DNA of 64,000 bases from contig JAPLLY010000015.1 in NCBI GenBank assembly GCA_026387315.1, forward strand, positions 22,825 to 86,824, given 5' to 3'. How positions within the stretch are numbered: position 1 is the stretch's first letter; each line of letters opens with the position of its first letter. Positions 2 through 9,496 of this stretch are shown here, in pieces. Below the pieces are notes generated by a model. The model saw only the letters and a program-made list of their open reading frames with translations, was not told the origin of the DNA and made no database searches. The position numbers and the translations under genes were made by a program. The DNA is from Candidatus Omnitrophota bacterium. GTDB lineage: Bacteria; Omnitrophota; Gorgyraeia; Gygaellales; Profunditerraquicolaceae.

Positions 2-1039
2 TTTCTTCTGCATCTGGAGAATCTGGATAGCCATATCTTACATATTTATTTATTGGTTGCCCCGGATCTTTTGGGAGTAAAAAGTTTTGTTCCTTTAATT
101 GAAACACATAATACGGTTGTGCGCAGGGCGTTACGCATGAAAAAGGAATGTAATGATGTTTGTGATATTCTGGTTGGGCGCCACGTGCATCCGATCTCCT
201 GTATTGTCGGCGGGTTTACCAAGCTCCCGCGGGAAAAAGATTTGCTCCGTATGCTCAACATTTTAATTGGCCTGCGTCCGGATATGGAAGCGACTTTAGA
301 GTTAGCCAAGGCCCTTAAATTTCCACAGTTTAGCCGTGAAACTGAATATGTGAGCCTGGTTAATGATAGCAGTGAATATCCGATGCTTTCAGGAGACTTA
401 GGCTCAACTGATGGATTGCGAATGGCTAAAAAAGACTACCGTAAACTTACCAACGAATTTGTAGTTAGCCATTCTAGCGCTAAACACACCAAGGCTACTC
501 GGCAATCTTATGCGGTTGGGGCGCTGGCGCGTTTTAATCTTAACCAGCATAAACTTCATCCCAAGGCTAAAGAAGCAGCTAAGGCTTTGGGGATGAAACC
601 AATAGTAACTAACCCATACTTAAATACTGCTGCCCAGCTGATTGAATGTGTGCATTCGCTGGAGGATGCTATTGAGATCTTGGAAAGGCTTAAAGATAAA
701 GGTGTGGATTATTCCCAGGAGATTGTGGTGGGCTTAAATGAACGGGGTACTATTCCAGTTAAGGCGGGTTGCGGCATTGGGGCAGTTGAAGTTCCCAGAG
801 GAATTCTATTCCATGAATATGAAATTGATAATCAAGGTAAGATTGTCAACGCTAATTGCGTTATTCCTACCGGGCAGAATTTGAATAATATCGAACATGA
901 TATGGCCTCATTAGTTCCTCAAATACTTGATAAGAGCCAAGAAGAGATTACTCTCCTGCTGGAGATGCTGGTACGCGCTTATGACCCGTGTATCTCCTGC
1001 TCCGCGCATTTTTTGAATGTCAAATTTGTTGGCCGGTAA
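2..1039 (+). CDS. [NiFe]-hydrogenase large subunit, group 3b (sulfhydrogenase alpha-like); 5' end outside window
   Basis: Frame open from base 2 (…SHILHIYLLVAPD); GRHVHP, EVPRG, and C-terminal L2 motif RAYDPCISCSAH plus a 9-aa cleavable tail. Confidence 0.93.
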   Translation, partial: FLLHLENLDSHILHIYLLVAPDLLGVKSFVPLIETHNTVVRRALRMKKECNDVCDILVGRHVHPISCIVGGFTKLPREKDLLRMLNILIGLRPDMEATLELAKALKFPQFSRETEYVSLVNDSSEYPMLSGDLGSTDGLRMAKKDYRKLTNEFVVSHSSAKHTKATRQSYAVGALARFNLNQHKLHPKAKEAAKALGMKPIVTNPYLNTAAQLIECVHSLEDAIEILERLKDKGVDYSQEIVVGLNERGTIPVKAGCGIGAVEVPRGILFHEYEIDNQGKIVNANCVIPTGQNLNNIEHDMASLVPQILDKSQEEITLLLEMLVRAYDPCISCSAHFLNVKFVGR

Positions 1040-1598
1040 TACTGGCTCAGTAACCAATCTTTTAACTCCCCAAGAATTTTCTCACACACTGATTATCACT
1101 GTAGGTAATTGTTTTCGCGCTGATGATGGAGTGGGGCCATATATCGCCTCTGGTCTAAAACCGAGCGTTAAGCTTTCGGTGATTGACGCCGGATCTACTC
1201 CGGGAAATATCATTGATCAGGCGATAAAGTTATTTGCGCAGCAGGAGGCCTTACTTGAGAGGCCGGTACGCGCCTCTGCGCGGCACCCGGCCTTATCTGA
1301 GAGGCCGGTACGCGCCTCTGCGCAGAGGATTATCTTTATTGATGCGGCGGATTTTGGGGGAGCGCCCGGAGAATTGCGCCTCATTGATGCCGAACATATT
1401 CCCGAGTCAACTTTAAGCACGCACAGTATGCCATTGCCGGTGATTAGCCGTATTTTGTATGAAGATACTCAGGCCGAGATTTATTTTATCGGTATTCAGC
1501 CTAAAAGCGTAGAACATAAAGATGGCCTTTCTAAAGAGGTAAGTTCTACTGCCGACGCGCTGATTAAGCATATTAATCAGGAGTTTAAGGATGCATGA
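1017..1598 (+). CDS. Hydrogenase maturation endopeptidase (HycI/HybD family) with an internal 14-aa duplication
   Basis: GNCFRADDGVG, IDAADFG, STHSMP, IGIQP motifs; overlaps the large-subunit stop. Confidence 0.9.
   Translation: MSNLLAGNTGSVTNLLTPQEFSHTLIITVGNCFRADDGVGPYIASGLKPSVKLSVIDAGSTPGNIIDQAIKLFAQQEALLERPVRASARHPALSERPVRASAQRIIFIDAADFGGAPGELRLIDAEHIPESTLSTHSMPLPVISRILYEDTQAEIYFIGIQPKSVEHKDGLSKEVSSTADALIKHINQEFKDA
1247..1323. repeat. 42-bp-period tandem duplication inside the protease CDS
   Basis: ggccttacttgagaggccggtacgcgcctctgcgc (1247) and ggccttatctgagaggccggtacgcgcctctgcgc (1289). Confidence 0.9.
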
Positions 1599-1836
1599 AA
1601 TTCATTTTCTGGAGGATTTATTTAAAGATATCCTACATCATCTTAGCCAGCATAATGCCAAAAATGTAACGCAGGTGTTTTTGGAATTAGGCGAGTTTAC
1701 TGAGATTAATGAGGAGTGCTTAAGGTTTTTCTTTAAAGAAAAATCTCAAGGCTCAGCATTAGAGAATGCTTTATTCAGTATAAAACATATTCCGCAACAG
1801 CGCGTTTTGCGCCTGGTTTCATTTGATTATGATTAA
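1591..1836 (+). CDS. hypA: HypA-like nickel metallochaperone lacking the zinc-finger subdomain
   Basis: N-terminal MHE motif, LELGEFTEINEECLRFFF…GSALENA, C-terminal LRLVSFD strand; both CxxC pairs absent. Confidence 0.8.
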   Translation: MHEIHFLEDLFKDILHHLSQHNAKNVTQVFLELGEFTEINEECLRFFFKEKSQGSALENALFSIKHIPQQRVLRLVSFDYD

Positions 1837-1862
1837 ATTGAAAATTTTCTCTAATGGAAACA

Positions 1863-1908
1863 AGGGGACGGTTCTGTTTTTTATATATAAAAAACAGAAC
1901 CGTCCCCT
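1863..1908. repeat. Family A palindrome (GGGGACGGTTCT…AGAACCGTCCCC)
   Basis: Perfect inverted repeat; at least 10 related copies in the window. Confidence 0.9.
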
Positions 1909-1928
1909 AGATTCTAATTAATATTTGT

Positions 1929-3236
1929 ATGTGTTATGCAATTCCCGGAAAAATAGAGGCGATTAATAATAAGATGGTGGTTGTAGACTACTTCGGCGAG
2001 AAGAAGAAAGCCTATAATGAACTAGATGGTTTGTCTGTCGGTGATTATATCTACGCCCAGGGTGGTTATGCTATTGCGAAAATTCCCGAAGATGAAGCCA
2101 AAAGCATTCTGGCTGTTTGGAAGGAGACTTTTTTTGAGCTTCAGGAAGTTGACCTAAAGCTTTCCCGCCTGGACCTTAATCAGAAATCTGTATCCGGCGA
2201 ATTCTTGAGAATATTGGATAAGGCAGCCGAAGGCAAGAAACTTTCGCCGGAAGAACTCCTGATTTTGATTAAGGAAAAAAATAAACCCGCCCTGGAGCTT
2301 CTTTTCAAAACGGCAAATTTCTTGCGTCAGAAACACCATAAGAATTCTTGCTGCGTGCATGGGATTATTGAAATTTCCAATTACTGCCGCTGTAATTGTG
2401 ATTATTGCGGTATCGCTAAGGGTAACCAAAATATTACGCGTTATCGCTTAACTTGCGGCCAGATACTTGAAGCTGCCCGGCAAGCAATACAGGAGCATGG
2501 TTTTAAGGCGCTGGTGTTGCAATCCGGTGAAGATAGTGGATATAGTATAGAGGAGCTTGCCGAGATTATCCGTAAGATAAAAGTTAATTGGCCGGCTCTA
2601 ATTTTTATTAGCTTCGGAGAAGTGGGGCTGGATAATTTAAAGATTCTTTATGATGCCGGCGCGCGGGGATTGCTTTTGCGATTTGAAACATCTAACCCCA
2701 AGCTTTATCAACAGGTCACCGCGGGTAAAGATCTGGCTAGCCGCATTGCGCATTTAAAAAAAGCTTATGAGTTGGGCTATATGATTATTACCGGAGGTTT
2801 GATTGGCTTGCCGCAACAAAGCCCAGAAGATCTTTTAAATGACATACTTTTAACTAAAGAGTTGCATGCCGAGATGTTTAGTTTTGGCCCATTTATTAGG
2901 CATCCGCAAACCCCGCTGGCTAAATATCCATCGCCCGAAGTAGAAACTGTGCTTAAGGTTATTGCTATTTCGCGCATCATTGATGCGGCGAATGCTAAAA
3001 TTCTAGTTACTACTGCCTTGGAGACACTTAATCCTGATGCTAGGAGAGAGGCGCTGCTTAGCGGAGCGAATTCCGTGATGCTTAATGTAACTCCGCTTGA
3101 ATACCGGTCCTTTTATAACATTTATCCTGCGCGCGCTCATGAAAAAGAGAGCATCGCAGTTCAGATTAAAGATACTATCGGGCTTCTAATGTCTCTAGGA
3201 CGCTCACCTACTGATTTAAGTGTGTTATCCCCGTGA
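1929..3236 (+). CDS. HypC-HydE fusion: N-terminal HypC chaperone domain plus HydE-like radical SAM domain
   Basis: aa 1-65 MCYAIPGKI…VGDYIYAQGGYAIAKIPEDEA (HypC); then CRCNCDYC, LQSGED, LRFETSN, GPFIRHPQTPL, TTALETL, GANSVMLNVTP, YRSFYNIYP (HydE). Confidence 0.88.
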   Translation: MCYAIPGKIEAINNKMVVVDYFGEKKKAYNELDGLSVGDYIYAQGGYAIAKIPEDEAKSILAVWKETFFELQEVDLKLSRLDLNQKSVSGEFLRILDKAAEGKKLSPEELLILIKEKNKPALELLFKTANFLRQKHHKNSCCVHGIIEISNYCRCNCDYCGIAKGNQNITRYRLTCGQILEAARQAIQEHGFKALVLQSGEDSGYSIEELAEIIRKIKVNWPALIFISFGEVGLDNLKILYDAGARGLLLRFETSNPKLYQQVTAGKDLASRIAHLKKAYELGYMIITGGLIGLPQQSPEDLLNDILLTKELHAEMFSFGPFIRHPQTPLAKYPSPEVETVLKVIAISRIIDAANAKILVTTALETLNPDARREALLSGANSVMLNVTPLEYRSFYNIYPARAHEKESIAVQIKDTIGLLMSLGRSPTDLSVLSP

Positions 3237-3277
3237 AAACGGGGATCCAGATTTCCGCTTTCGCGGGAATGACACAC
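3220..3277. repeat. REP-like palindrome (GTCATTCCCGCG-type) overlapping the hypC-hydE stop
   Basis: gtgtgttatccccgtgaaaacggggatc…cgggaatgacacac; related to 49208-49334. Confidence 0.75.
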
Positions 3278-3316
3278 GATTAATTTTGACAGTTATGAGT
3301 AGAAATAAAAAATAAT

Positions 3317-3949
3317 ATGAAAACGAACAAACTTTGTATTATGCGGCTTTCTAAGTATAAGAGCGCGCTTTATCGCCTTAAATCACTGGGTTTTGTGCGG
3401 ATTTTTTCGGATAATTTAGCGGATGCCGTAGAGGTAACTTCGTCTCAGGTGCGTAAGGATTTTTCTATTTTTGATATATCGGGAAATAAACGCGGCGGCT
3501 ATAAGATTGATGAACTGATTGAAAAGATTAATACTATTCTTGGTAAAGATGAATTGCAAAAAGTGGTGATTGTTGGTTTAGGAAAGCTGGGATCCGCTCT
3601 TACGCATTATACTGGTTTTGAGAAAGAGGGGATAAAGGTTGTCGCTGCTTTTGATATAGACGCGTTAAAATTTAAACCCAAAGAGAAAACCCCGGTTTTC
3701 CCCTTAGCCGGCCTGCCGGAGTTTGTGCGTAAGAATAATATTAAAATTGGAATTATTACGGTCCCGGCTGCGGCCGCCCAGCCAGTAGTTGATATTATGC
3801 TTTCGGCAGGAATTAAAGGGGTATTAAATTTTGCCCCAATACAACTGCGGGGAAATGATGATTGCCTGATAAACAATGTGAATCTTGAGGTAGAGCTGGA
3901 AAACCTTATTTATTTCGTTAATGCCTTAATTAAGGCAAAAGGAAAATAA
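3317..3949 (+). CDS. rex: Redox-sensing transcriptional repressor Rex
   Basis: RLSKY, QVRKDFS…G.RGGY winged helix, VGLGKLG Rossmann fold, LNFAP. Confidence 0.95.
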   Translation: MKTNKLCIMRLSKYKSALYRLKSLGFVRIFSDNLADAVEVTSSQVRKDFSIFDISGNKRGGYKIDELIEKINTILGKDELQKVVIVGLGKLGSALTHYTGFEKEGIKVVAAFDIDALKFKPKEKTPVFPLAGLPEFVRKNNIKIGIITVPAAAAQPVVDIMLSAGIKGVLNFAPIQLRGNDDCLINNVNLEVELENLIYFVNALIKAKGK

Positions 3950-3956
3950 GCAGTAA

Positions 3957-5345
3957 ATGAAGCAGATTAATGAAGAGAGAATAAATAACTTATTATTGTC
4001 CACTGCCGATAGCGATAGCCGTAAAATTGACAGGATTATTAATAAAAGCAAATCCTTAAAAAGGCTTACGCTGGAAGAATCAGCCATCCTGCTGGCAGTT
4101 CAGGATGCCGGCTCTCTTGAAAAAATATTTGCCGCGGCTAGTTTTGTTAAAGATGCAATTTACGGCAGGCGAGTGGTATTATTTGCCCCGCTTTATATCA
4201 GCAATTTCTGCGTAAATAACTGCCTTTATTGCGCGTTTAAATCCGATAACTTGGCAATTAAGCGTAAAGCCTTAAGCGCAGCTGAAATTAAATCGCAAAC
4301 TGAATGGCTCTTAGGCCGTGGACATAAAAGAATACTGATGGTTTGCGGGGAGGAAGCGCCTGGTGGGGAATCTAATGTAGATTATTATGTCCAAGCAGTG
4401 AAAGCTATTTATGCTGCGGAAGTGGGTAAGAATAAGATTAAAAGGGTTAATGTTAATTGCGCGCCGCTGAGTATTGATGATTTTAAAAAGCTTAAATCAA
4501 GCGGTATAGGGACTTACCAGATTTTTCAGGAAACATATCATCAGAAAACTTATCTGCGTATGCATCCTAAAGGGCCAAAAAGTGATCCTGATAATAGGAT
4601 TGATGCGGTTGATCGGGCATTTAAAGCCGGGATAGATGATATAGGGATTGGCGCGCTTTATGGTTTATTTGACTGGCGTTTTGAGACATTAGGATTGCTT
4701 TCCCATATTGAGCATATGGAGGAGAAATTTAAAGTCGGGCCGCATACTATTTCTGTGCCGCGTATTGAGCCGGCAGAGGGCGCGGAGCTGTCCCTGAGGC
4801 CTCCCCATAAAATTTCTGATGATGAATTTAAAAAGGTGGTGGCGATTTTAAGGCTTTCTGTGCCCTATACCGGGATCATTATGACTACCCGTGAGAATGC
4901 TTTGATGCGCGATGCCTTGATTAGCCTGGGGGTTTCCCAGATTAGCGCTGAATCTAATACCTCTCCCGGAGGGTATTCTGCCAGCCGTGCCGAGCAGGCA
5001 GGCGGTCAGTTTTCGCTTGGTGACCAGCGCAGCCTGGATGAGATCGTGGGGACTTTGATTGCCCATGATTATATCCCCAGTTTTTGCGCTGCCTGTTATC
5101 GCATGGAAAGAACCGGCGAAGCCTTTATGCAATTAGCTAAACCCGGAATGATCAAAGGTAAATGTAGTATGAATGCTTTAATTACTCTGCAAGAATATCT
5201 CGATGATTTTGCATCAGTTAAAGTTAAGCAGGCCGGGTACAAAATGATTGAGCGTTATTTTAACAAACTGGATAATGTTGATCAGGATATGCTAAAGTTC
5301 TTCTTTAGCCATGTAGATTCCGGAATAAGGGATGAGTATGTTTAA
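3957..5345 (+). CDS. hydG: [FeFe]-type radical SAM maturase HydG
   Basis: FAPLYISNFCVNNCLYC, FQETYH, GPHTISVPR (dangler-Fe His), C-terminal CX2CX22C (CAAC…C) auxiliary cluster motif absent from ThiH. Confidence 0.92.
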   Translation: MKQINEERINNLLLSTADSDSRKIDRIINKSKSLKRLTLEESAILLAVQDAGSLEKIFAAASFVKDAIYGRRVVLFAPLYISNFCVNNCLYCAFKSDNLAIKRKALSAAEIKSQTEWLLGRGHKRILMVCGEEAPGGESNVDYYVQAVKAIYAAEVGKNKIKRVNVNCAPLSIDDFKKLKSSGIGTYQIFQETYHQKTYLRMHPKGPKSDPDNRIDAVDRAFKAGIDDIGIGALYGLFDWRFETLGLLSHIEHMEEKFKVGPHTISVPRIEPAEGAELSLRPPHKISDDEFKKVVAILRLSVPYTGIIMTTRENALMRDALISLGVSQISAESNTSPGGYSASRAEQAGGQFSLGDQRSLDEIVGTLIAHDYIPSFCAACYRMERTGEAFMQLAKPGMIKGKCSMNALITLQEYLDDFASVKVKQAGYKMIERYFNKLDNVDQDMLKFFFSHVDSGIRDEYV

Positions 5346-5482: not shown

Positions 5483-5556
5483 CCCCGCACCTTCTTTGTA
5501 TTTAGATATTAGAAGGCGTAGGGTTAAAAATTAACTAATAAGAAGAAGGTGCGGGG
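5483..5556. mobile_element. Family B MITE-like element (13-bp TIR CCCCGCACCTTCT, TGAA duplication)
   Basis: TIRs at 5483 and 5544-5556, TGAA on both sides; second copy at 33020-33092. Confidence 0.8.
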
Positions 5557-6380
5557 TGAAAATACTCAACAAACAGATTATTAATGATGTGGCAGGGGTA
5601 AAGATTACGCAATTGGATATTCTTTCTCCGGATATCGCCGCGAAGGCCCAAGCCGGACAGTTTGTGATGTTAATGGCTAGCGAAAAGGGGGAGCGCATCC
5701 CCTTGACCTTAGTGAATACGGATAAAATAAAAGGTACTCTGAGCTTGATTTTTCAGGAGGCAGGTTTTACCACTCGGAGTTTAGGTGGATTAAATCCCGG
5801 AGATTCACTTTATTCTTTAGTCGGGCCTTTAGGGCATCCTACCCAGATTAAGAAATATGGAAAAATAATTTTGGTTGGCGGAGGAGTGGGGATTGCCGAG
5901 ATTCTGCCGGTTGCCCGCGCCTTAAAGCAGGCAGGTAATCAGATTACTACTATTCTGGGTTCTCGGAATAAAGACCTGCTCATTTTGGAAGCTGAACTTA
6001 AAAGCGCATCTGATCAAATTTATATTATGACTGATGATGGTTCTTACGGAAGGAAAGGCTTTACCACTGACATGTTAAAGGAACTTTTGAGTAAAGGTAA
6101 ATATGATTTGATTTATTCTGTGGGCCCTATTCCGATGATGAAGAGAGCGGCTTTAGCTAGCAGTGAATATAAGATTAAAACTTTAGTTTCGCTTAATGCG
6201 CTGATGGTGGATGCCACCGGAATGTGCGGTTGCTGCCGGGTGACTGTTTTTGGCCAGGTAAAATTTAGTTGTGTTGATGGGCCGGATTTTGATGGCCATG
6301 GCGTTGATTGGGAAGAACTCCAAAAGAGAAATAAGGTGTATAGCATTCAGGAGAAACACATTTGTAATCTGAAGATATAG
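5556..6380 (+). CDS. NfnA/SudB-like FAD/NAD-binding 2Fe-2S subunit
   Basis: GQFVML…GERIPLT, GPLG, GGGVG, TDDGSYG, MVDATGMCGCCRV…CVDGP. Confidence 0.9.
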   Translation: MKILNKQIINDVAGVKITQLDILSPDIAAKAQAGQFVMLMASEKGERIPLTLVNTDKIKGTLSLIFQEAGFTTRSLGGLNPGDSLYSLVGPLGHPTQIKKYGKIILVGGGVGIAEILPVARALKQAGNQITTILGSRNKDLLILEAELKSASDQIYIMTDDGSYGRKGFTTDMLKELLSKGKYDLIYSVGPIPMMKRAALASSEYKIKTLVSLNALMVDATGMCGCCRVTVFGQVKFSCVDGPDFDGHGVDWEELQKRNKVYSIQEKHICNLKI

Positions 6381-6383
6381 AAT

Positions 6384-6517
6384 CGTCATTCAGACTGTGT
6401 CGCAATGTCATTGCGAGGAGCCGTAGGCGGCGAAGCAATCTCAAAACCGAGATTGCTTCGCCCCTGCGGGGCTCGCAATGACGCACGTTTTGTTATTGCG
6501 ACACAGTCTGAATGACG
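6384..6517. repeat. Nested palindromic element (perfect 23-bp outer IR around a REP-like doublet)
   Basis: cgtcattcagactgtgtcgcaat / attgcgacacagtctgaatgacg enclosing gtcattgcgag…gaagcaatct/agattgcttc…ctcgcaatgac. Confidence 0.85.
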
Positions 6518-6530
6518 GAAATTTTAAATT

Positions 6531-7952
6531 ATGAAAAAAGAACCGGTAAAAGTTAGAGAAGTACCTGCGGTAACCAGAACGGGGAATTTTCAGGAGGTAG
6601 TCCTGGGGTACTCTGAAGAAGAGGCTTATGTAGAAGCCTCCCGCTGTCTGCAGTGTAAGAACCCGGTTTGTATCAGCGGTTGTCCGGTAGGCATTGATAT
6701 CAAGAAGTTTATTTATCAGATCACGCGAAAGGATTATAATCTGGCGTATTTTACGATTAGAGAAAAAAATAATTTTCCTTCGATCTGCGGAAGAGTCTGC
6801 CCGGCGGAATACCAATGCCGTAAAACCTGTATACTGACTAAGAAAGACGCGCCTTTTGCTTCCGAAAAAGCGATCAATATTCATTTTTTAGAACGTTTTG
6901 CCGGGGATTATGGCAAGAATAACAATTTGGATGTTAAGGAAGAAAAAGGCCAAAAGTTTTCTAAATTTAAAGTGGCGGTAGTGGGTTCTGGCCCGGCTGG
7001 TTTATGCTGCGCCGGAGAATTAGCGCGCCAGGGAATCCAAGTTGATATTTTTGAAAGCCTGCATAAAACCGGCGGGGTTTTAAGATATGGCATCCCTCCT
7101 TTTAGGCTGCCTTGGGATGTTTTGGATTTTGAGATAAATTATCTAAAAAAATTAGGGGTTAATTTTATTACTAATTTTCTTGCAGGCAAAGCTAAAACCA
7201 TTAAAGAATTATTCACCCAAGGGTATTCTAATGTATTTTTGGGGCTGGGCGCGGGGGTGCCATCTTTCTTGGGAATTAATGGCGAAAATCTTTGTAATAT
7301 TTATTCAGTAAATGAATTCTTGACTAGGGTCAATTTAATGTCTGCTTATAAATTCCCCGAGTTTCATACTCCGGTTAATATTGGAAGAAACGTTTTGATT
7401 GTTGGTGGAGGCAATACGGCTATGGATTCTGCCAGAGTTGCTTTGAGACTGCAGAAGTTAAATGGTTTGCCGCTTAACACTACAATTATTTATCGGCGCA
7501 CGGAAATTGAAATGCCGGCAAGACGCTTGGAACTGGAGCATGCCCGGGAAGAAGGAGTAAAGTTTGAATTTTTGGTGCAGCCAAAAGAGTTTATTGGAGA
7601 TGGCCGGGGGTTTGTTAGGAAGTTAATTTGTCTTAAGTCTAAATTAAAAGAACCGGACAGCTCAGGCAGGAGGAGGCCGGTGATTATAGAAGGAAGTGAA
7701 TTTCAACTTGATTGTGATTTATGCGTGATTGCCGTGGGGTTAAAAGCAAATCAAATTTTAATTAACGCCACCCCGGAATTAAAAACAGATAAGTATTCAG
7801 ATGTCATTGTTGACGCTGAAACTATGGAGAGTTCGATTAAAGGGGTTTTTGCCGGTGGGGATATTGTGGGTGGAGAAGGCACGGTTATTGAAGCGATGGG
7901 GATGGCCAAAAAGGCAGCCCAGTCAATAATCGGCGAGCTTTCTAAAAAATAA
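6531..7952 (+). CDS. NfnB/SudA-like (GltD-family) NADPH-dependent oxidoreductase
   Basis: EASRCLQC…CISGCP, CGRVCP, GSGPAG, GGGNTAMD, FAGGD; paired with the NfnA-like gene. Confidence 0.9.
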   Translation: MKKEPVKVREVPAVTRTGNFQEVVLGYSEEEAYVEASRCLQCKNPVCISGCPVGIDIKKFIYQITRKDYNLAYFTIREKNNFPSICGRVCPAEYQCRKTCILTKKDAPFASEKAINIHFLERFAGDYGKNNNLDVKEEKGQKFSKFKVAVVGSGPAGLCCAGELARQGIQVDIFESLHKTGGVLRYGIPPFRLPWDVLDFEINYLKKLGVNFITNFLAGKAKTIKELFTQGYSNVFLGLGAGVPSFLGINGENLCNIYSVNEFLTRVNLMSAYKFPEFHTPVNIGRNVLIVGGGNTAMDSARVALRLQKLNGLPLNTTIIYRRTEIEMPARRLELEHAREEGVKFEFLVQPKEFIGDGRGFVRKLICLKSKLKEPDSSGRRRPVIIEGSEFQLDCDLCVIAVGLKANQILINATPELKTDKYSDVIVDAETMESSIKGVFAGGDIVGGEGTVIEAMGMAKKAAQSIIGELSKK

Positions 7953-7997
7953 CACCCCGCGCTTATAAGGTCTTGCGCGGGTGTGCCCTTATGGGCA
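7953..7997. repeat. Family D palindrome (CACCCCGCGC…GCGCGGGTG plus small hairpin)
   Basis: Related copies at 28949, 37568, 43840. Confidence 0.75.
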
Positions 7998-8012
7998 AGG
8001 AGGAGAAGAAAA

Positions 8013-9350
8013 ATGGTAAAGAAAGTCGAAGAGTTTATGGATCTGGTAGTACAGAAGAACCCGGGGGAGGTGGAATTTCATCAGGCAGTAAGAGAGGTTG
8101 TGGAATCAGTAATGCCTTTTATTGAAAAAAATCCTAAATATCAGAAAGCTAAGATATTGGAAAAAATGATTGAACCGGAAAGAACAATAATATTTCGTGT
8201 TCCTTGGCTTGATGATCAAGGAGAAGTTCAAATTAACCGTGGTTACCGTATTGAAATGAGCAGTGCCATCGGGCCGTATAAAGGCGGGTTGCGCCTTCAT
8301 CCCAGTGTGAACTTGGGTATATTGAAATTTTTGGCTTTTGAGCAGGTTTTTAAGAATGCGCTTACTACTTTGCCTATGGGGGGCGGAAAAGGCGGCTCGG
8401 ATTTTGATCCTAAAGGGAAGTCGGATAATGAAGTAATGAAGTTTTGCCAAAGTTTTATGACTGAGCTTTCCAGGCATATTGGCCAGAATACCGATGTTCC
8501 AGCCGGGGATATCGGTGTAGGTGGCCGTGAAATAGGTTATATGTTTGGGCAGTATAAAAGGTTGCGCAATGAATTCACCGGTGTCTTGACCGGTAAAGGT
8601 CTTAATTGGGGCGGGAGCTTGATCCGGCCGGAAGCTACGGGTTATGGTTGCGTGTATTTTGTAGAAGAAATGCTTAAGCTGCGCGGAGATTCTTTAAAAG
8701 GAAAAGTTTGCGCGGTTTCCGGTTCAGGTAATGTTGCTCAATACACCGTGGAGAAGCTTCTGCAGCTGGGGGCTAAAGTAGTTACGCTCTCTGACTCTGA
8801 CGGGTATATTTATGATAAAGACGGTATTGACACTAAAGAGTTAAATTGCGTTTTAAATTTGAAAAATGTTAAGCGCGGCAGAATTAAAGAATGTGCCAAG
8901 GAATTTAACTGTAAGTATTTTGAAAAACAGAGGCCTTGGGGGATAAAATGCGATGTGGCATTTCCTTCCGCTACTCAGAATGAGATAGATGAAAATGATG
9001 CTAAGACCTTAGTGAAAAATGGCTGTATTGCTATTGGTGAAGGCGCAAATATGCCTACTACACCGCAAGGCGTTGAGGTATTTCAGAAGGCAAAAATTCT
9101 TTATGCGCCTGGTAAAGCCTCCAATGCCGGCGGGGTGGCTACCTCCGGATTAGAGATGTCTCAGAATAGCATGCGTTTATCCTGGTCGCGCCAGGAAGTG
9201 GATAAGAAGTTGCATGAGATTATGATTGCTATTCATGAGAGTTGCGTTAAATATGGCAAGGAAGATAAATATATAAATTATGTTAACGGAGCCAATATCG
9301 CTGGATTTGTGAAAGTTGCTGATGCCATGCTCGATCAGGGGTTGGTGTAA
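8013..9350 (+). CDS. gdhA: NADP-specific glutamate dehydrogenase
   Basis: GPYKGGLR, GGGKGG, DVPAGD, RPEATGYG; AGGAGG RBS favours the ATG at 8013. Confidence 0.96.
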   Translation: MVKKVEEFMDLVVQKNPGEVEFHQAVREVVESVMPFIEKNPKYQKAKILEKMIEPERTIIFRVPWLDDQGEVQINRGYRIEMSSAIGPYKGGLRLHPSVNLGILKFLAFEQVFKNALTTLPMGGGKGGSDFDPKGKSDNEVMKFCQSFMTELSRHIGQNTDVPAGDIGVGGREIGYMFGQYKRLRNEFTGVLTGKGLNWGGSLIRPEATGYGCVYFVEEMLKLRGDSLKGKVCAVSGSGNVAQYTVEKLLQLGAKVVTLSDSDGYIYDKDGIDTKELNCVLNLKNVKRGRIKECAKEFNCKYFEKQRPWGIKCDVAFPSATQNEIDENDAKTLVKNGCIAIGEGANMPTTPQGVEVFQKAKILYAPGKASNAGGVATSGLEMSQNSMRLSWSRQEVDKKLHEIMIAIHESCVKYGKEDKYINYVNGANIAGFVKVADAMLDQGLV

Positions 9351-9363
9351 GCAGCAGAAAATC

Positions 9364-9402
9364 AAGGGGACGGTTCTCTTAAAAAAAGAGAACCGTCCCC
9401 TT
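9364..9402. repeat. Family A palindrome, probably also acting as the gdhA terminator
   Basis: GGGGACGGTTCTC…GAGAACCGTCCCC followed by a T-tract. Confidence 0.85.
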
Positions 9403-9496
9403 TTTTCGTAAATGGCCGCTGTTTTTATTTTGATCCCTGCTGGCTTACGCCAGCAAGGACTACGCTAAATAAAAACTATAAGGTGCTTGATTGTAG

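What the first reader, a model, noticed from the sequence alone, without database searches (positions are those of the whole stretch)
2..5345. [NiFe]-hydrogenase operon carrying [FeFe]-type maturases: candidate hybrid cofactor-assembly pathway
Seen: a co-oriented cluster of group 3b [NiFe] large subunit, protease, minimal HypA, HypC-HydE fusion, rex and hydG. No hypB, hypD, hypE, hypF, hydF or [FeFe] hydA occurs in the 64 kb. Established: [NiFe] enzymes normally receive Fe(CN)2CO from HypC-HypD, with CN made from carbamoyl phosphate by HypE/HypF. HydG makes CO and CN from tyrosine as an Fe(CO)2(CN)-cysteine synthon that HydE then processes for HydF. Inference: here HydG and HydE may replace HypDEF, and the fused HypC hands the iron unit to the large subunit. 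This would join two maturation pathways regarded as independent. I know of no description of it but cannot search the literature. The genes upstream of base 1 are not visible.
Basis: partly seen in the sequence, partly recalled or inferred. Interest (0 to 1): 0.95.

Follow-up and report, generated by a model that had tools for sequence, protein, structure and literature searches.

The report
NiFe hydrogenase matured by HydG route
A nickel-iron hydrogenase operon carries a HypC chaperone fused to a HydE-like radical-SAM enzyme next to HydG, in genomes that lack the usual HypD, HypE and HypF, which points to an undescribed way of building the enzyme's iron-carbonyl-cyanide centre.

Summary
The window opens inside a four-subunit group-3b-like [NiFe] hydrogenase operon. 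It is followed by a maturation protease, an 81-aa HypA lacking the zinc domain, a 435-aa HypC–HydE-like fusion, rex and a canonical HydG.

In a 201-genome sample of the phylum, 76 genomes hold a [NiFe] large subunit. They split as follows:
- 24 have the fusion, and none of these has HypD, HypE or HypF.
- 50 have HypD/E/F genes and no fusion.
- 2 are undecided.

Of the 24 fusion genomes, 22 have HydG. Twelve have neither [FeFe] HydA nor HydF, including a 2-contig genome. The fusion always lies just downstream of a [NiFe] operon, of group 3b, 3c or 4 type. In some lineages HypC, HydE and HydG form one polypeptide.

The fused HydE domain is a separate clade. It keeps the radical-SAM motif and the iron-carrying methionines. 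It has lost the three residues that hold the di-iron product and has an invariant Cys-x-His.

Best reading: HydG plus HypC–HydE replace HypCDEF. This is inferred from genomes and is untested biochemically. I found no description in print.

The parts
2..1039 (+). C-terminal 345 aa of the [NiFe] hydrogenase large subunit. The whole gene is C7:22538-23863 (441 aa) and starts 287 bases before the window. It is the last gene of a hydB-hydG(gamma)-small subunit-large subunit operon.
   Evidence: Nickel-iron motifs RICGICACGH (aa 62-71) and DPCISCSAH (aa 424-432), followed by a 9-aa C-terminal tail for the protease.
1017..1598 (+). Hydrogenase maturation endopeptidase (193 aa), with an insert made by a 42-nt tandem duplication at 1235-1318.
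   Evidence: TIGR00072 100.7 bits against 47.45; Pfam HycI 56.4 against 23. Duplication.
1591..1836 (+). Short HypA (81 aa). It holds the N-terminal nickel-binding part beginning MHE. The zinc-finger part is missing and it has no CxxC pair.
   Evidence: Pfam HypA 47.4 bits against 28.9 over model 1-70 of 112; TIGR00100 46 against 88.1. Sequence. An ~80-aa homologue lies in 15 of 23 other fusion loci.
1857..1914 (.). Palindrome (29-nt arms, T-run) between short hypA and the fusion gene. It may be a terminator or a dispersed repeat; a near-copy lies at 9360-9407.
   Evidence: Raised contig depth at this spot in a DNA run.
1929..2153 (+). HypC domain of the fusion protein (aa 1-75). Cys2 is invariant. 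An invariant Gln44 stands where HypC has its conserved His.
   Evidence: Pfam HupF_HypC 53.2 against 28.5. Alignment to T. kodakarensis HypC. C2 and Q44 in 63 of 63 fusions. It is the only HypC-family match in the genome.
2214..3236 (+). HydE-like radical-SAM domain of the fusion protein (aa 96-435). It holds the CX3CX2C motif (C153, C157, C160), Met316 and Met384, and the clade-specific C141-C142-x-H144.
   Evidence: TIGR03956 247.9 against 254.6. 207 bits to T. maritima HydE structures. Separate clade. Residue comparison.
3317..3949 (+). Rex, a redox-sensing repressor, between the fusion gene and hydG.
   Evidence: NF003996 237.1 bits against 138. A rex gene holds the same place in L014, L019, L026, L028 and L048.
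3957..5345 (+). HydG (462 aa), a tyrosine-cleaving radical-SAM enzyme. It has the N-terminal CX3CX2C motif (C85, C89, C92) and the C-terminal CX2CX22C motif (C377, C380, C403).
   Evidence: TIGR03955 482.4 against 312.15. 445.7 bits to the HydG structure 4WCX. Motifs. It is the only HydG in the genome.

Best explanation
This is a HypD/HypE/HypF-independent maturation module for [NiFe] hydrogenases. It is built from [FeFe]-type radical-SAM enzymes.

Proposed steps (all inferred):
1. HydG cleaves tyrosine and builds the Fe(Cys)(CO)2(CN) unit. This is its known chemistry.
2. The HydE-like domain of the fusion takes this unit and strips the cysteine by radical-SAM chemistry. It passes a mono-iron carbonyl/cyanide species down its barrel on the two conserved methionines.
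3. Canonical HydE uses Arg54/Thr134/Arg155 to hold a di-iron product destined for HydF. Here an invariant Cys-x-His site and the tethered HypC domain (Cys2) capture the iron unit instead.
4. One CO is exchanged for the second cyanide that HydG releases in each cycle, giving Fe(CN)2(CO).
5. The HypC domain inserts the unit into the apo large subunit.
6. The short HypA adds nickel, and the protease removes the C-terminal tail.

Shown here: gene content, linkage, co-occurrence, domain fusions and residue patterns. Inferred: every chemical step.
For: (1) Partition of the phylum sample. Of 201 genomes, 76 have a [NiFe] large subunit. All 24 fusion genomes are among them, and 0 of the 24 have HypD, HypE or HypF. 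Of the other 52, 48 have HypD and 50 have at least one of HypD/E/F (sets checked). Fusion genomes lie in 11 families, and 6 families hold both types.

(2) Sensitive check of five high-quality fusion genomes (2 to 20 contigs, 94-96% complete). None has a HypD match even at E<=1. The fused domain is their only HypC. The same holds for this genome.

(3) HydG distribution.
- 22 of 24 fusion genomes have HydG.
- 12 of 24 have neither HydA nor HydF.
- Of 13 genomes with HydG but no HydA, 12 are fusion genomes.

(4) Linkage. In all 23 other fusion genomes the fusion lies just downstream of a [NiFe] operon with protease. These operons are 3b-like, Mvh/3c-like or membrane-bound group-4-like, all with both CxxC motifs. 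HydG is adjacent wherever no stand-alone HydE exists.

(5) Rosetta-stone fusions. HypC-HydE-HydG forms one 915-aa ORF in a 2-contig genome. Eleven further protein clusters of 895-946 aa show the same build at 43-74% identity; their source names include Omnitrophota and Nitrospirae.

(6) Other phyla. The same cassette occurs in MAGs named Spirochaetes, Saganbacteria, Margulisiibacteriota and Deltaproteobacteria. HypD was found in 0 of 5 such genomes.

(7) Specialised HydE, unspecialised HydG.
- Fusion HydE domains form one side of a branch with SH-aLRT 100 (34 against 22 rows).
- Fusion genomes that also have HydA and HydF keep an extra stand-alone HydE: 8 of 10.
- HydG from NiFe-only and FeFe-only genomes is interleaved on its tree.

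(8) Residues.
- Kept: the radical-SAM cysteines, and Met224/Met291/Thr268-269 equivalents.
- Changed: R54 to His (34/34 against Arg 22/22), T134 to Phe/Cys/Leu (against Thr 22/22), R155 to Gly/Ala (against Arg 22/22).
- C142 and H144 are invariant in 61/61 fusions plus 11/11 triple fusions.

(9) HypC domain. Cys2 is kept. The conserved His is Gln in 63/63 fusions. Stand-alone HypC proteins of HypD-type relatives keep the His.
Against: - There is no biochemical, spectroscopic or expression evidence.
- All genomes are metagenome-assembled, and absence is inferred from assemblies. The own genome is 93% complete.
- HydG's known product carries 2 CO and 1 CN, while the [NiFe] site needs 1 CO and 2 CN. 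A ligand exchange must therefore be assumed.
- This genome has an [FeFe] HydA, so here HydG could also serve that enzyme. Its hydE and hydF were not found, which leaves the [FeFe] side of this genome unexplained.
- 2 of 24 fusion genomes show no HydG (83% and 89% complete).
- The phylum-wide searches used strict E-value limits (1e-15 to 1e-30). Very divergent Hyp proteins would be missed, except in the 11 genomes searched at looser limits: G000 and G201-G205 at E<=0.001, and five high-quality fusion genomes at E<=1.
- Related genomes are not independent samples.
Confidence: 0.75

Rival explanations
1. Partial replacement. HydG and the fusion supply only some of the ligands, for example the CO whose anaerobic source is unknown, or free CO/CN-. 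Alternatively the HydE-like domain does something other than process HydG's iron unit. The rest of the [NiFe] iron centre would come from an unrecognised, non-Hyp route.
For: The 2 CO/1 CN against 1 CO/2 CN mismatch is unresolved. A passage in PMC9431212 says clostridial HydG has been shown to release free CO and CN-. The product-site residues of HydE are changed, so the domain's product need not be the one assumed.
Against: No other gene is conserved across the fusion loci apart from protease, short HypA, rex and HydG. HypE and HypF, the only known cyanide source for [NiFe], were found in 0 of 24 fusion genomes. The triple fusions tie all three activities into one polypeptide.
Confidence: 0.15
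2. Coincidental linkage. HydG and the fusion mature only [FeFe] hydrogenases. The [NiFe] enzyme is matured by ordinary Hyp proteins that are missing from the assemblies or too divergent to detect.
For: This genome has an [FeFe] HydA on a contig that ends inside the gene, and the assembly is 93% complete. The fusion scores close to the HydE cut-off (247.9 against 254.6).
Against: 12 of 24 fusion genomes have no HydA and no HydF, among them genomes of 2, 9 and 10 contigs. HypD/E/F were found in 0 of 24 fusion genomes, while 50 of the 52 other [NiFe] genomes of the same phylum have at least one of them (48 have HypD) with the same models. No HypD match appears at E<=1 in five high-quality genomes. 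Genomes with HydA and HydF keep a separate canonical HydE. The HypC domain is the sole HypC in the genome.
Confidence: 0.04
3. The [NiFe] hydrogenase genes in fusion genomes are relics or have a non-catalytic role, so no iron-carbonyl-cyanide centre is needed.
For: None positive. The only ground is that activity has not been measured.
Against: Both nickel-iron CxxC motifs and the cleavable C-terminal tail are kept in 3b-, 3c- and 4-type large subunits. A dedicated protease and HypA are kept beside them. The cassette is conserved across 11 families and several phyla.
Confidence: 0.02

Closest known systems
HypCDEF pathway of [NiFe] hydrogenase maturation (E. coli, Thermococcus kodakarensis)
   Same: A HypC-type chaperone with the N-terminal Cys, a HypA-type nickel chaperone and a C-terminal endopeptidase sit beside the structural genes. 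The target is an ordinary [NiFe] large subunit with both CxxC motifs.
   Different: No HypD scaffold and no HypE/HypF cyanide synthesis were found (0 of 24 genomes). HypC is fused to a radical-SAM enzyme. Its conserved His is Gln in 63/63. HypA lacks the zinc domain.
HydE/HydF/HydG pathway of the [FeFe] hydrogenase H-cluster
   Same: HydG is canonical: over the NCBIfam cut-off, with both cluster motifs, and interleaved with the HydG of [FeFe]-only relatives. The HydE-like domain keeps the radical-SAM motif and the Met224/Met291/Thr268-269 equivalents.
   Different: 12 of 24 genomes have no HydF and no HydA. The HydE-like domain is a separate clade. It has lost R54/T134/R155 and carries Cys-x-His and an N-terminal HypC domain. 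The inferred client is a [NiFe] enzyme.
HydE-HypC fusion noted in a Legionellales symbiont of Anaeramoeba (bioRxiv 10.64898/2026.04.11.717937; passages read)
   Same: [quoted passage not shown]
   Different: It calls this 'full maturation machinery' and, in the passages I saw, proposes no mechanism. Those passages say nothing about HypDEF or HydG. I did not see the sequence, so identity with this family is untested.
HypX, the aerobic CO-ligand synthase of [NiFe] maturation (PMC6802093; search listing and abstract only)
   Same: It is a precedent for an alternative enzymatic source of a diatomic ligand of the [NiFe] centre.
   Different: HypX works alongside HypCDEF and supplies CO only. Here the whole HypDEF set is missing, and a tyrosine-cleaving radical-SAM enzyme is the candidate source of both ligands.
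HmdB/Hcg radical-SAM step of the [Fe]-hydrogenase cofactor (NCBIfam TIGR03957)
   Same: It is another HydE/BioB-like radical-SAM enzyme recruited to a hydrogenase cofactor other than the H-cluster. That role is recalled knowledge.
   Different: The match is weak (75.6 bits against a cut-off of 320.9). This protein is not a member of that family.

Membership tests
[NiFe] hydrogenase large subunit (group 3b-like) | N-terminal RxCGxCxxxH motif and C-terminal DPCxxCxxH motif with a cleavable tail | tested here: met
   RICGICACGH at aa 62-71 and DPCISCSAH at aa 424-432, plus a 9-aa tail.
[NiFe] hydrogenase large subunit (group 3b-like) | Four-gene operon (beta, gamma, small, large subunit) and NCBIfam sulfhydrogenase alpha equivalog score | tested here: inconclusive
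   The operon is present. The best models are sulfhydrogenase HydA/ShyA but far under their cut-offs: 182 against 880 for the partial protein, and 253 against 700 for the full-length relative L013. No HydDB-type classifier was available.
HydG (TIGR03955) | Score over the curated cut-off | tested here: met
   482.4 bits against 312.15. 445.7 bits to structure 4WCX over residues 4-461.
HydG (TIGR03955) | N-terminal CX3CX2C motif and C-terminal CX2CX22C motif for the auxiliary cluster | tested here: met
   C85/C89/C92 and C377/C380/C403. H263 is invariant in 48/48. Its role as ligand of the fifth iron is recalled, not tested.
HydE (TIGR03956) | Score over the curated cut-off | tested here: not met
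   247.9 bits against 254.6.
HydE (TIGR03956) | Radical-SAM CX3CX2C motif and Met224/Met291/Thr268-269 of T. maritima HydE | tested here: met
   C153/C157/C160, M316, M384 and T361/T362 are conserved in at least 95% of the 56 fusion and stand-alone rows.
HydE (TIGR03956) | Arg54, Thr134 and Arg155, which contact the CN ligands of the di-iron product (PMC11826987) | tested here: not met
   His (34/34), Phe/Cys/Leu, and Gly/Ala in fusions, against Arg, Thr and Arg in 22/22 stand-alone HydE.
HydE (TIGR03956) | Groups with stand-alone HydE in a tree | tested here: not met
   Fusion domains form one side of a branch, SH-aLRT 100, length 0.58+0.76. No outgroup was used, so the root is unknown.
HypC/HupF (PF01455, TIGR00074) | Family score and N-terminal Met-Cys | tested here: met
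   Pfam 53.2 against 28.5. TIGR00074 scores 41.7 against 48, which is under the cut-off. Cys2 is present in 63/63.
HypC/HupF (PF01455, TIGR00074) | Conserved His (His51 of E. coli HypC; numbering recalled) | tested here: not met
   Gln44 in 63/63 fusions aligns with the His of T. kodakarensis HypC. Stand-alone HypC proteins of HypD-type relatives keep the His.
HypC/HupF (PF01455, TIGR00074) | Partner HypD in the same genome | tested here: not met
   0 of 24 fusion genomes. None at E<=1 in five of them. None in the own genome.
HypA (PF01155, TIGR00100) | N-terminal nickel-binding part | tested here: met
   Pfam 47.4 against 28.9 over model 1-70. The protein begins MHE.
HypA (PF01155, TIGR00100) | Zinc site with two CxxC pairs, and the equivalog cut-off | tested here: not met
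   81 aa with no CxxC. TIGR00100 scores 46 against 88.1.
Hydrogenase maturation endopeptidase (TIGR00072) | Score over the curated cut-off | tested here: met
   100.7 against 47.45.
Rex (NF003996) | Score over the curated cut-off | tested here: met
   237.1 against 138.

The most novel reading that the evidence does not exclude
A second, radical-SAM route to the [NiFe] active site exists in nature. Both the CO and the CN ligands would come from tyrosine through HydG. A HypC-tethered HydE paralogue would take the place of HypD, HypE, HypF and HydF. The two hydrogenase maturation systems, treated as independent, would then share an enzyme and an intermediate. The bolder form of this reading is that the iron centre made this way carries a ligand set other than (CN)2(CO).
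Probability: 0.7. Interest if true: 0.95.

Novelty: new variant of a known kind. Interest (0 to 1): 0.9.

Why it matters
[quoted passage not shown] That HydEFG belongs to [FeFe] enzymes only is general knowledge. A natural system in which HydG and a HydE paralogue feed a [NiFe] enzyme would have several consequences.
- It would break that separation.
- It would offer a defined source for the CO ligand under anoxic conditions. That this source is an open question is recalled knowledge.
- It would give a much smaller gene set for heterologous production of [NiFe] hydrogenases.
- It would change how hydrogen metabolism is read from genomes. 'Orphan' HydG/HydE would no longer imply an [FeFe] enzyme, and a [NiFe] operon without hypDEF would no longer imply an inactive one. 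In the sample, 12 of 13 orphan-HydG genomes are explained this way.
- It is directly testable with existing E. coli deletion strains and isotope-edited infrared spectroscopy.

Tried and rejected
Expression. The look-up of sequencing runs listed no RNA holder. I laid three metatranscriptome contig sets from the same or related samples and one DNA run. That gave only short RNA pieces, mostly at dispersed intergenic repeats, plus one 179-nt piece in the protease gene. Nothing can be said about transcription.

I therefore made no model of my own and ran no docking of HypC on HydE or of the fusion on HydG.

Ideas dropped:
- Lack of HypB as part of the system. HypB is found in only 10 of 201 genomes, in both types.
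- A specialised HydG for [NiFe]. The HydG tree mixes NiFe-only and FeFe-only genomes.
- The shifted second cysteine in the HydG C-terminal motif as a marker. It occurs in 14 of 48 HydG, in both kinds of genome.
- Another conserved gene in the loci that could stand in for HypD. Clustering ORFs of the 23 fusion loci and 3 control loci found none beyond protease, short HypA, rex, HydG and hydrogenase subunits.

Literature. Searches found no paper that describes HydG/HydE-dependent [NiFe] maturation. The term 'HydE-HypC' occurs in one preprint only. Table S3 of PMC11216029 and the preprint's supplements could hold relevant lists that I could not see.

Rows dropped:
- The HydE tree used 33 of the 62 full-length fusion ORFs plus the window, and all 22 stand-alone HydE fetched.
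- A1 leaves out L029 (triple fusion) and a duplicate locus.
- A2 likewise leaves out L029 and a duplicate locus; L098 was already excluded by the HydG filter.

Full report
WHAT IS THERE.

The window is G000:C7:22825-86824 of a 1.80-Mb, 62-contig assembly that is 93.3% complete with 5.2% contamination. On the + strand it holds the following genes:
- the last 345 aa of a [NiFe] large subunit (2-1039);
- a maturation endopeptidase (1017-1598);
- an 81-aa HypA that matches only the first 70 of 112 model positions (1591-1836);
- a 435-aa protein made of a HypC domain (aa 1-75) and a HydE-like radical-SAM domain (aa 96-407; TIGR03956 247.9 bits against a cut-off of 254.6) at 1929-3236;
- Rex (3317-3949);
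- HydG (3957-5345; 482.4 bits against 312.15).

Upstream on the contig are the beta, gamma and small subunits and the start of the large subunit, preceded by ATP-synthase-like ORFs. This is a complete four-subunit 3b-like operon. The large subunit has both nickel-iron motifs and a 9-aa tail after the final His. Downstream follow an NfnAB/sulfide-dehydrogenase-like pair and a glutamate dehydrogenase.

THE OWN GENOME.

Family searches of all six frames of the assembly gave these results:
- HypD: no match.
- HypB: no match.
- HypE: only weak matches from related superfamilies (39.6 bits against 251.6).
- HypF: likewise (36.6 against 466.1).
- HydF: GTPase-domain matches only (91.2 against 325.55).

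The fused domain is the genome's only HypC-family match. The fusion is also its only HydE-like gene (tblastn).

There is one [FeFe] HydA, on the 5,958-base contig C33. It lies behind rex, a NuoE-like gene and a 1,048-aa NuoF-like gene, and the contig end cuts it. C33's G+C (0.426) matches the genome's. The genome also holds a second [NiFe] enzyme, membrane-bound and group-4-like, with its own protease, on C34.

THE PHYLUM SAMPLE.

The same 201 genomes, drawn evenly from the phylum and including G000, were searched nine times. Sources name the close homologues Candidatus Omnitrophota.

A full-length fusion is present in 24 genomes. In 22 the match runs from residue 1 to about 432; two of these, G118 and G134, are cut by a contig end. 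The other 2 have a shorter linker in one ORF of 392-393 aa.

Counts for each family across the 201 genomes:
- [NiFe] large subunit: 76
- HypD: 50
- HypE: 50
- HypF: 53
- HydG over the cut-off: 94
- HydA: 86
- HydF: 83
- HypB: 10

I compared the sets by script.
- All 24 fusion genomes have a [NiFe] large subunit.
- 0 of the 24 have HypD, HypE or HypF.
- Of the other 52 [NiFe] genomes, 48 have HypD. Two more (G146, G196) have pieces of HypE or HypF.
- Two remain undecided: G132 has only a weak large-subunit match, and G140 is 77% complete.
- 22 of the 24 have HydG. The two without it are 83% and 89% complete.
- 12 of the 24 have neither HydA nor HydF. They include G155 (2 contigs, 96% complete), G135 (9 contigs), G127 and G043 (10 contigs each).
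- Among the 13 genomes with HydG but no HydA, 12 are fusion genomes.

Fusion genomes lie in 11 of the coded families. Six families hold both a fusion type and a HypD type, so the split is not one deep division.

In five high-quality fusion genomes no HypD match appears even at E<=1, and the fused domain is the only HypC.

HypB is rare in both types, so its absence is not part of this system.

LINKAGE.

I fetched the neighbourhoods of the fusion in the 23 other genomes and compared their ORFs with the window's proteins and with each other.
- In every locus the fusion follows a [NiFe] hydrogenase gene cluster. Where the contig allows, a protease lies between them.
- An ~80-aa HypA homologue is present in 15 of the 23 loci.
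- The hydrogenases are of three kinds: 3b-like; Mvh/Vhu-like (412 bits to VhuA, under the cut-off); and NuoD-like membrane-bound with two antiporter-like subunits. All examined large subunits keep both CxxC motifs and a C-terminal extension.
- HydG lies directly after the fusion, or after rex, in G000 and nine others. It lies directly before the fusion in two.
- In fusion genomes that also have HydA and HydF, HydG lies beside a separate, stand-alone HydE in at least six (G189, G200, G180, G053, G088, G188). A stand-alone HydE was seen in 8 of the 10.
- In G155 the HypC, HydE-like and HydG parts form one 915-aa ORF.
- A protein search found 11 more clusters with this three-part build. They are 895-946 aa long, cover 100% of the query and are 43-74% identical. 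Their source names include Omnitrophota and Nitrospirae.

BEYOND THE PHYLUM.

A scan of one genome per species found 42 loci with the fusion. Their record titles include Spirochaetes, Deltaproteobacteria, Candidatus Saganbacteria and Candidatus Margulisiibacteriota.

I examined 18 of these 42 loci. The same order, 3b operon, protease, (short HypA), fusion, (HydG), is seen in several of them, for example L057, L058, L060 and L075.

In five of those genomes HypD was found in 0 of 5 and HydA in 2 of 5. Their completeness is not given.

THE PROTEINS.

HydG is ordinary. It scores 445.7 bits to the Thermoanaerobacter italicus structure and has both cysteine motifs. On a tree of 48 HydG sequences, those from NiFe-only, FeFe-only and mixed genomes are interleaved. 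For example, an FeFe-only HydG sits inside a tight NiFe-only group.

The HydE-like domain is not ordinary. On a tree of 34 fusion domains and 22 stand-alone HydE it forms one side of a branch with SH-aLRT 100 (unrooted, quick search).

I took T. maritima numbering from the alignment to the solved structures. The 357/358-aa constructs are offset by 10 from the 348-aa chain, and Met, Met, Arg, Thr and Arg do stand at 224, 291, 54, 134 and 155. On this numbering the fusion clade compares with stand-alone HydE as follows:
- The radical-SAM cysteines are kept.
- Met224, Met291 and Thr268/269 are kept.
- Arg54 is His (34/34, against Arg 22/22).
- Thr134 is Phe, Cys or Leu (against Thr 22/22).
- Arg155 is Gly or Ala, with an Arg one place earlier (against Arg 22/22).
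- C141-C142-x-H144 is invariant in 61/61 fusions.

In the 11 more distant triple fusions, C142 and H144 are kept in 11/11 and C141 in 4/11. Cys2 is kept in 11/11 and Gln44 in 10/11.

Passages of PMC11826987 and PMC10114646 state three things:
- HydE turns HydG's Fe(Cys)(CO)2(CN) into Fe(I)(CO)2(CN)S species carried on M291 and M224.
- These species dimerise.

The fusion clade therefore keeps the entry and radical part of HydE and has remodelled the product end.

The HypC domain keeps the N-terminal Cys but has Gln in place of the conserved His in 63/63 fusions. Stand-alone HypC proteins of two HypD-type relatives keep the His.

HOW IT MOST LIKELY WORKS.

Taken together, the simplest reading is an assembly line: HydG, then the HydE-like domain, then the HypC domain, then the large subunit. 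HydF is replaced by the tethered HypC, and HypD/E/F are not needed.
- Shown: the gene and residue patterns above.
- Established elsewhere: the chemistry of HydG and HydE.
- Inferred: that the HydE-like domain releases a mono-iron unit to Cys142/His144 and then to Cys2; that a CO is exchanged for cyanide to reach Fe(CN)2(CO); that the short HypA inserts nickel alone.

The review passage that HydG's second cyanide drives release of its product means one spare cyanide per cycle is available. This makes the exchange plausible on stoichiometry. That point is my inference.

RIVALS.

- Chance linkage with missed hyp genes is very unlikely, given 0 of 24 against 48-50 of 52 with the same models, and given the near-closed genomes.
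- A partial role, with only CO or only free ligands supplied, cannot be excluded.
- A relic hydrogenase is contradicted by the conserved motifs and by the dedicated protease and HypA.
- For this particular genome the [FeFe] side is unexplained. HydA is present, but no HydF or stand-alone HydE was found. The contig ends inside hydA, so those genes may lie in unassembled sequence.

COMPARISON AND NOVELTY.

The parts belong to, or derive from, known families. The combination and the inferred client do not match either known pathway.

Six full-text searches found no description of it. [quoted passage not shown]

I rate it a new variant of a known kind, a hybrid of two known maturation systems. Interest is high because the claim is surprising, widely distributed and directly testable.

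LIMITS.

- All evidence comes from genomes, and all carriers seen are metagenome-assembled.
- The 201 genomes are a sample and are related to each other.
- Strict E-value limits were used in the phylum-wide searches.
- The trees are quick searches without outgroups.
- Supplementary files could not be read.

Noticed in passing
window 1235-1318: A 42-nt tandem duplication (86% identical copies) lies inside the protease gene. It adds a repeated 14-aa insert that the relatives' proteases (153-189 aa) lack.
   Followed up: partly
window 1857-1914, 9360-9407 and 6384-6517: Dispersed palindromic elements. A hairpin with 29-nt arms lies between short hypA and the fusion gene, with a near-copy after gdh. 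Perfect 23-nt inverted repeats flank 88 nt between the nfnA- and nfnB-like genes. These spots show several-fold higher contig depth in a DNA run, and they attract the few RNA contig pieces.
   Followed up: partly
L013:4194-6026 (G125): The large subunit (aa 21-451) and its maturation protease (aa 458-604) are read as one 610-aa ORF. This is either a natural substrate-protease fusion or an assembly frameshift.
   Followed up: no
G000 contig C33 (whole) and C34:2400-10913: C33 carries rex, hydC-like, a 1,048-aa hydB-like gene and an [FeFe] hydA cut by the contig end, with no hydE or hydF found anywhere in the genome. C34 carries a second, membrane-bound group-4-like [NiFe] hydrogenase with its own protease.
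   Followed up: partly
phylum sample, HypF matches: Most HypF genes of this phylum are short, about 370 aa. They match only model positions ~381-740 and sit next to hypD. Only 11 of 201 genomes have a match over the full-length cut-off.
   Followed up: no
A2 alignment, HydG residues 377-403: 14 of 48 HydG have the second cysteine of the C-terminal motif shifted by three places (C-x5-C instead of C-x2-C). This occurs in NiFe-only and FeFe-only genomes alike.
   Followed up: partly
large subunits in L016-L018, L024, L025, L057, L060 against L013-L015: The window's 3b large subunit is 76-79% identical to those of distant Omnitrophota families, a Spirochaete and a Saganbacterium. It is only 57-58% identical to those of its own genus. 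This suggests that the structural genes were exchanged independently of the fusion gene.
   Followed up: no
P0149; Atlas row 2: An 881-aa protein combines HydF-type domains with HydG, an [FeFe]-side counterpart of the triple fusion. A Bacillota family joins a Se/S-carrier domain to a BioB-like radical-SAM enzyme, with a similar two-domain build (TM 0.80).
   Followed up: no
window 5556-9350: An NfnAB/sulfide-dehydrogenase-like pair and an NADP-type glutamate dehydrogenase follow hydG. The Nfn-like pair also follows hydG in congeners G125 and G127.
   Followed up: no
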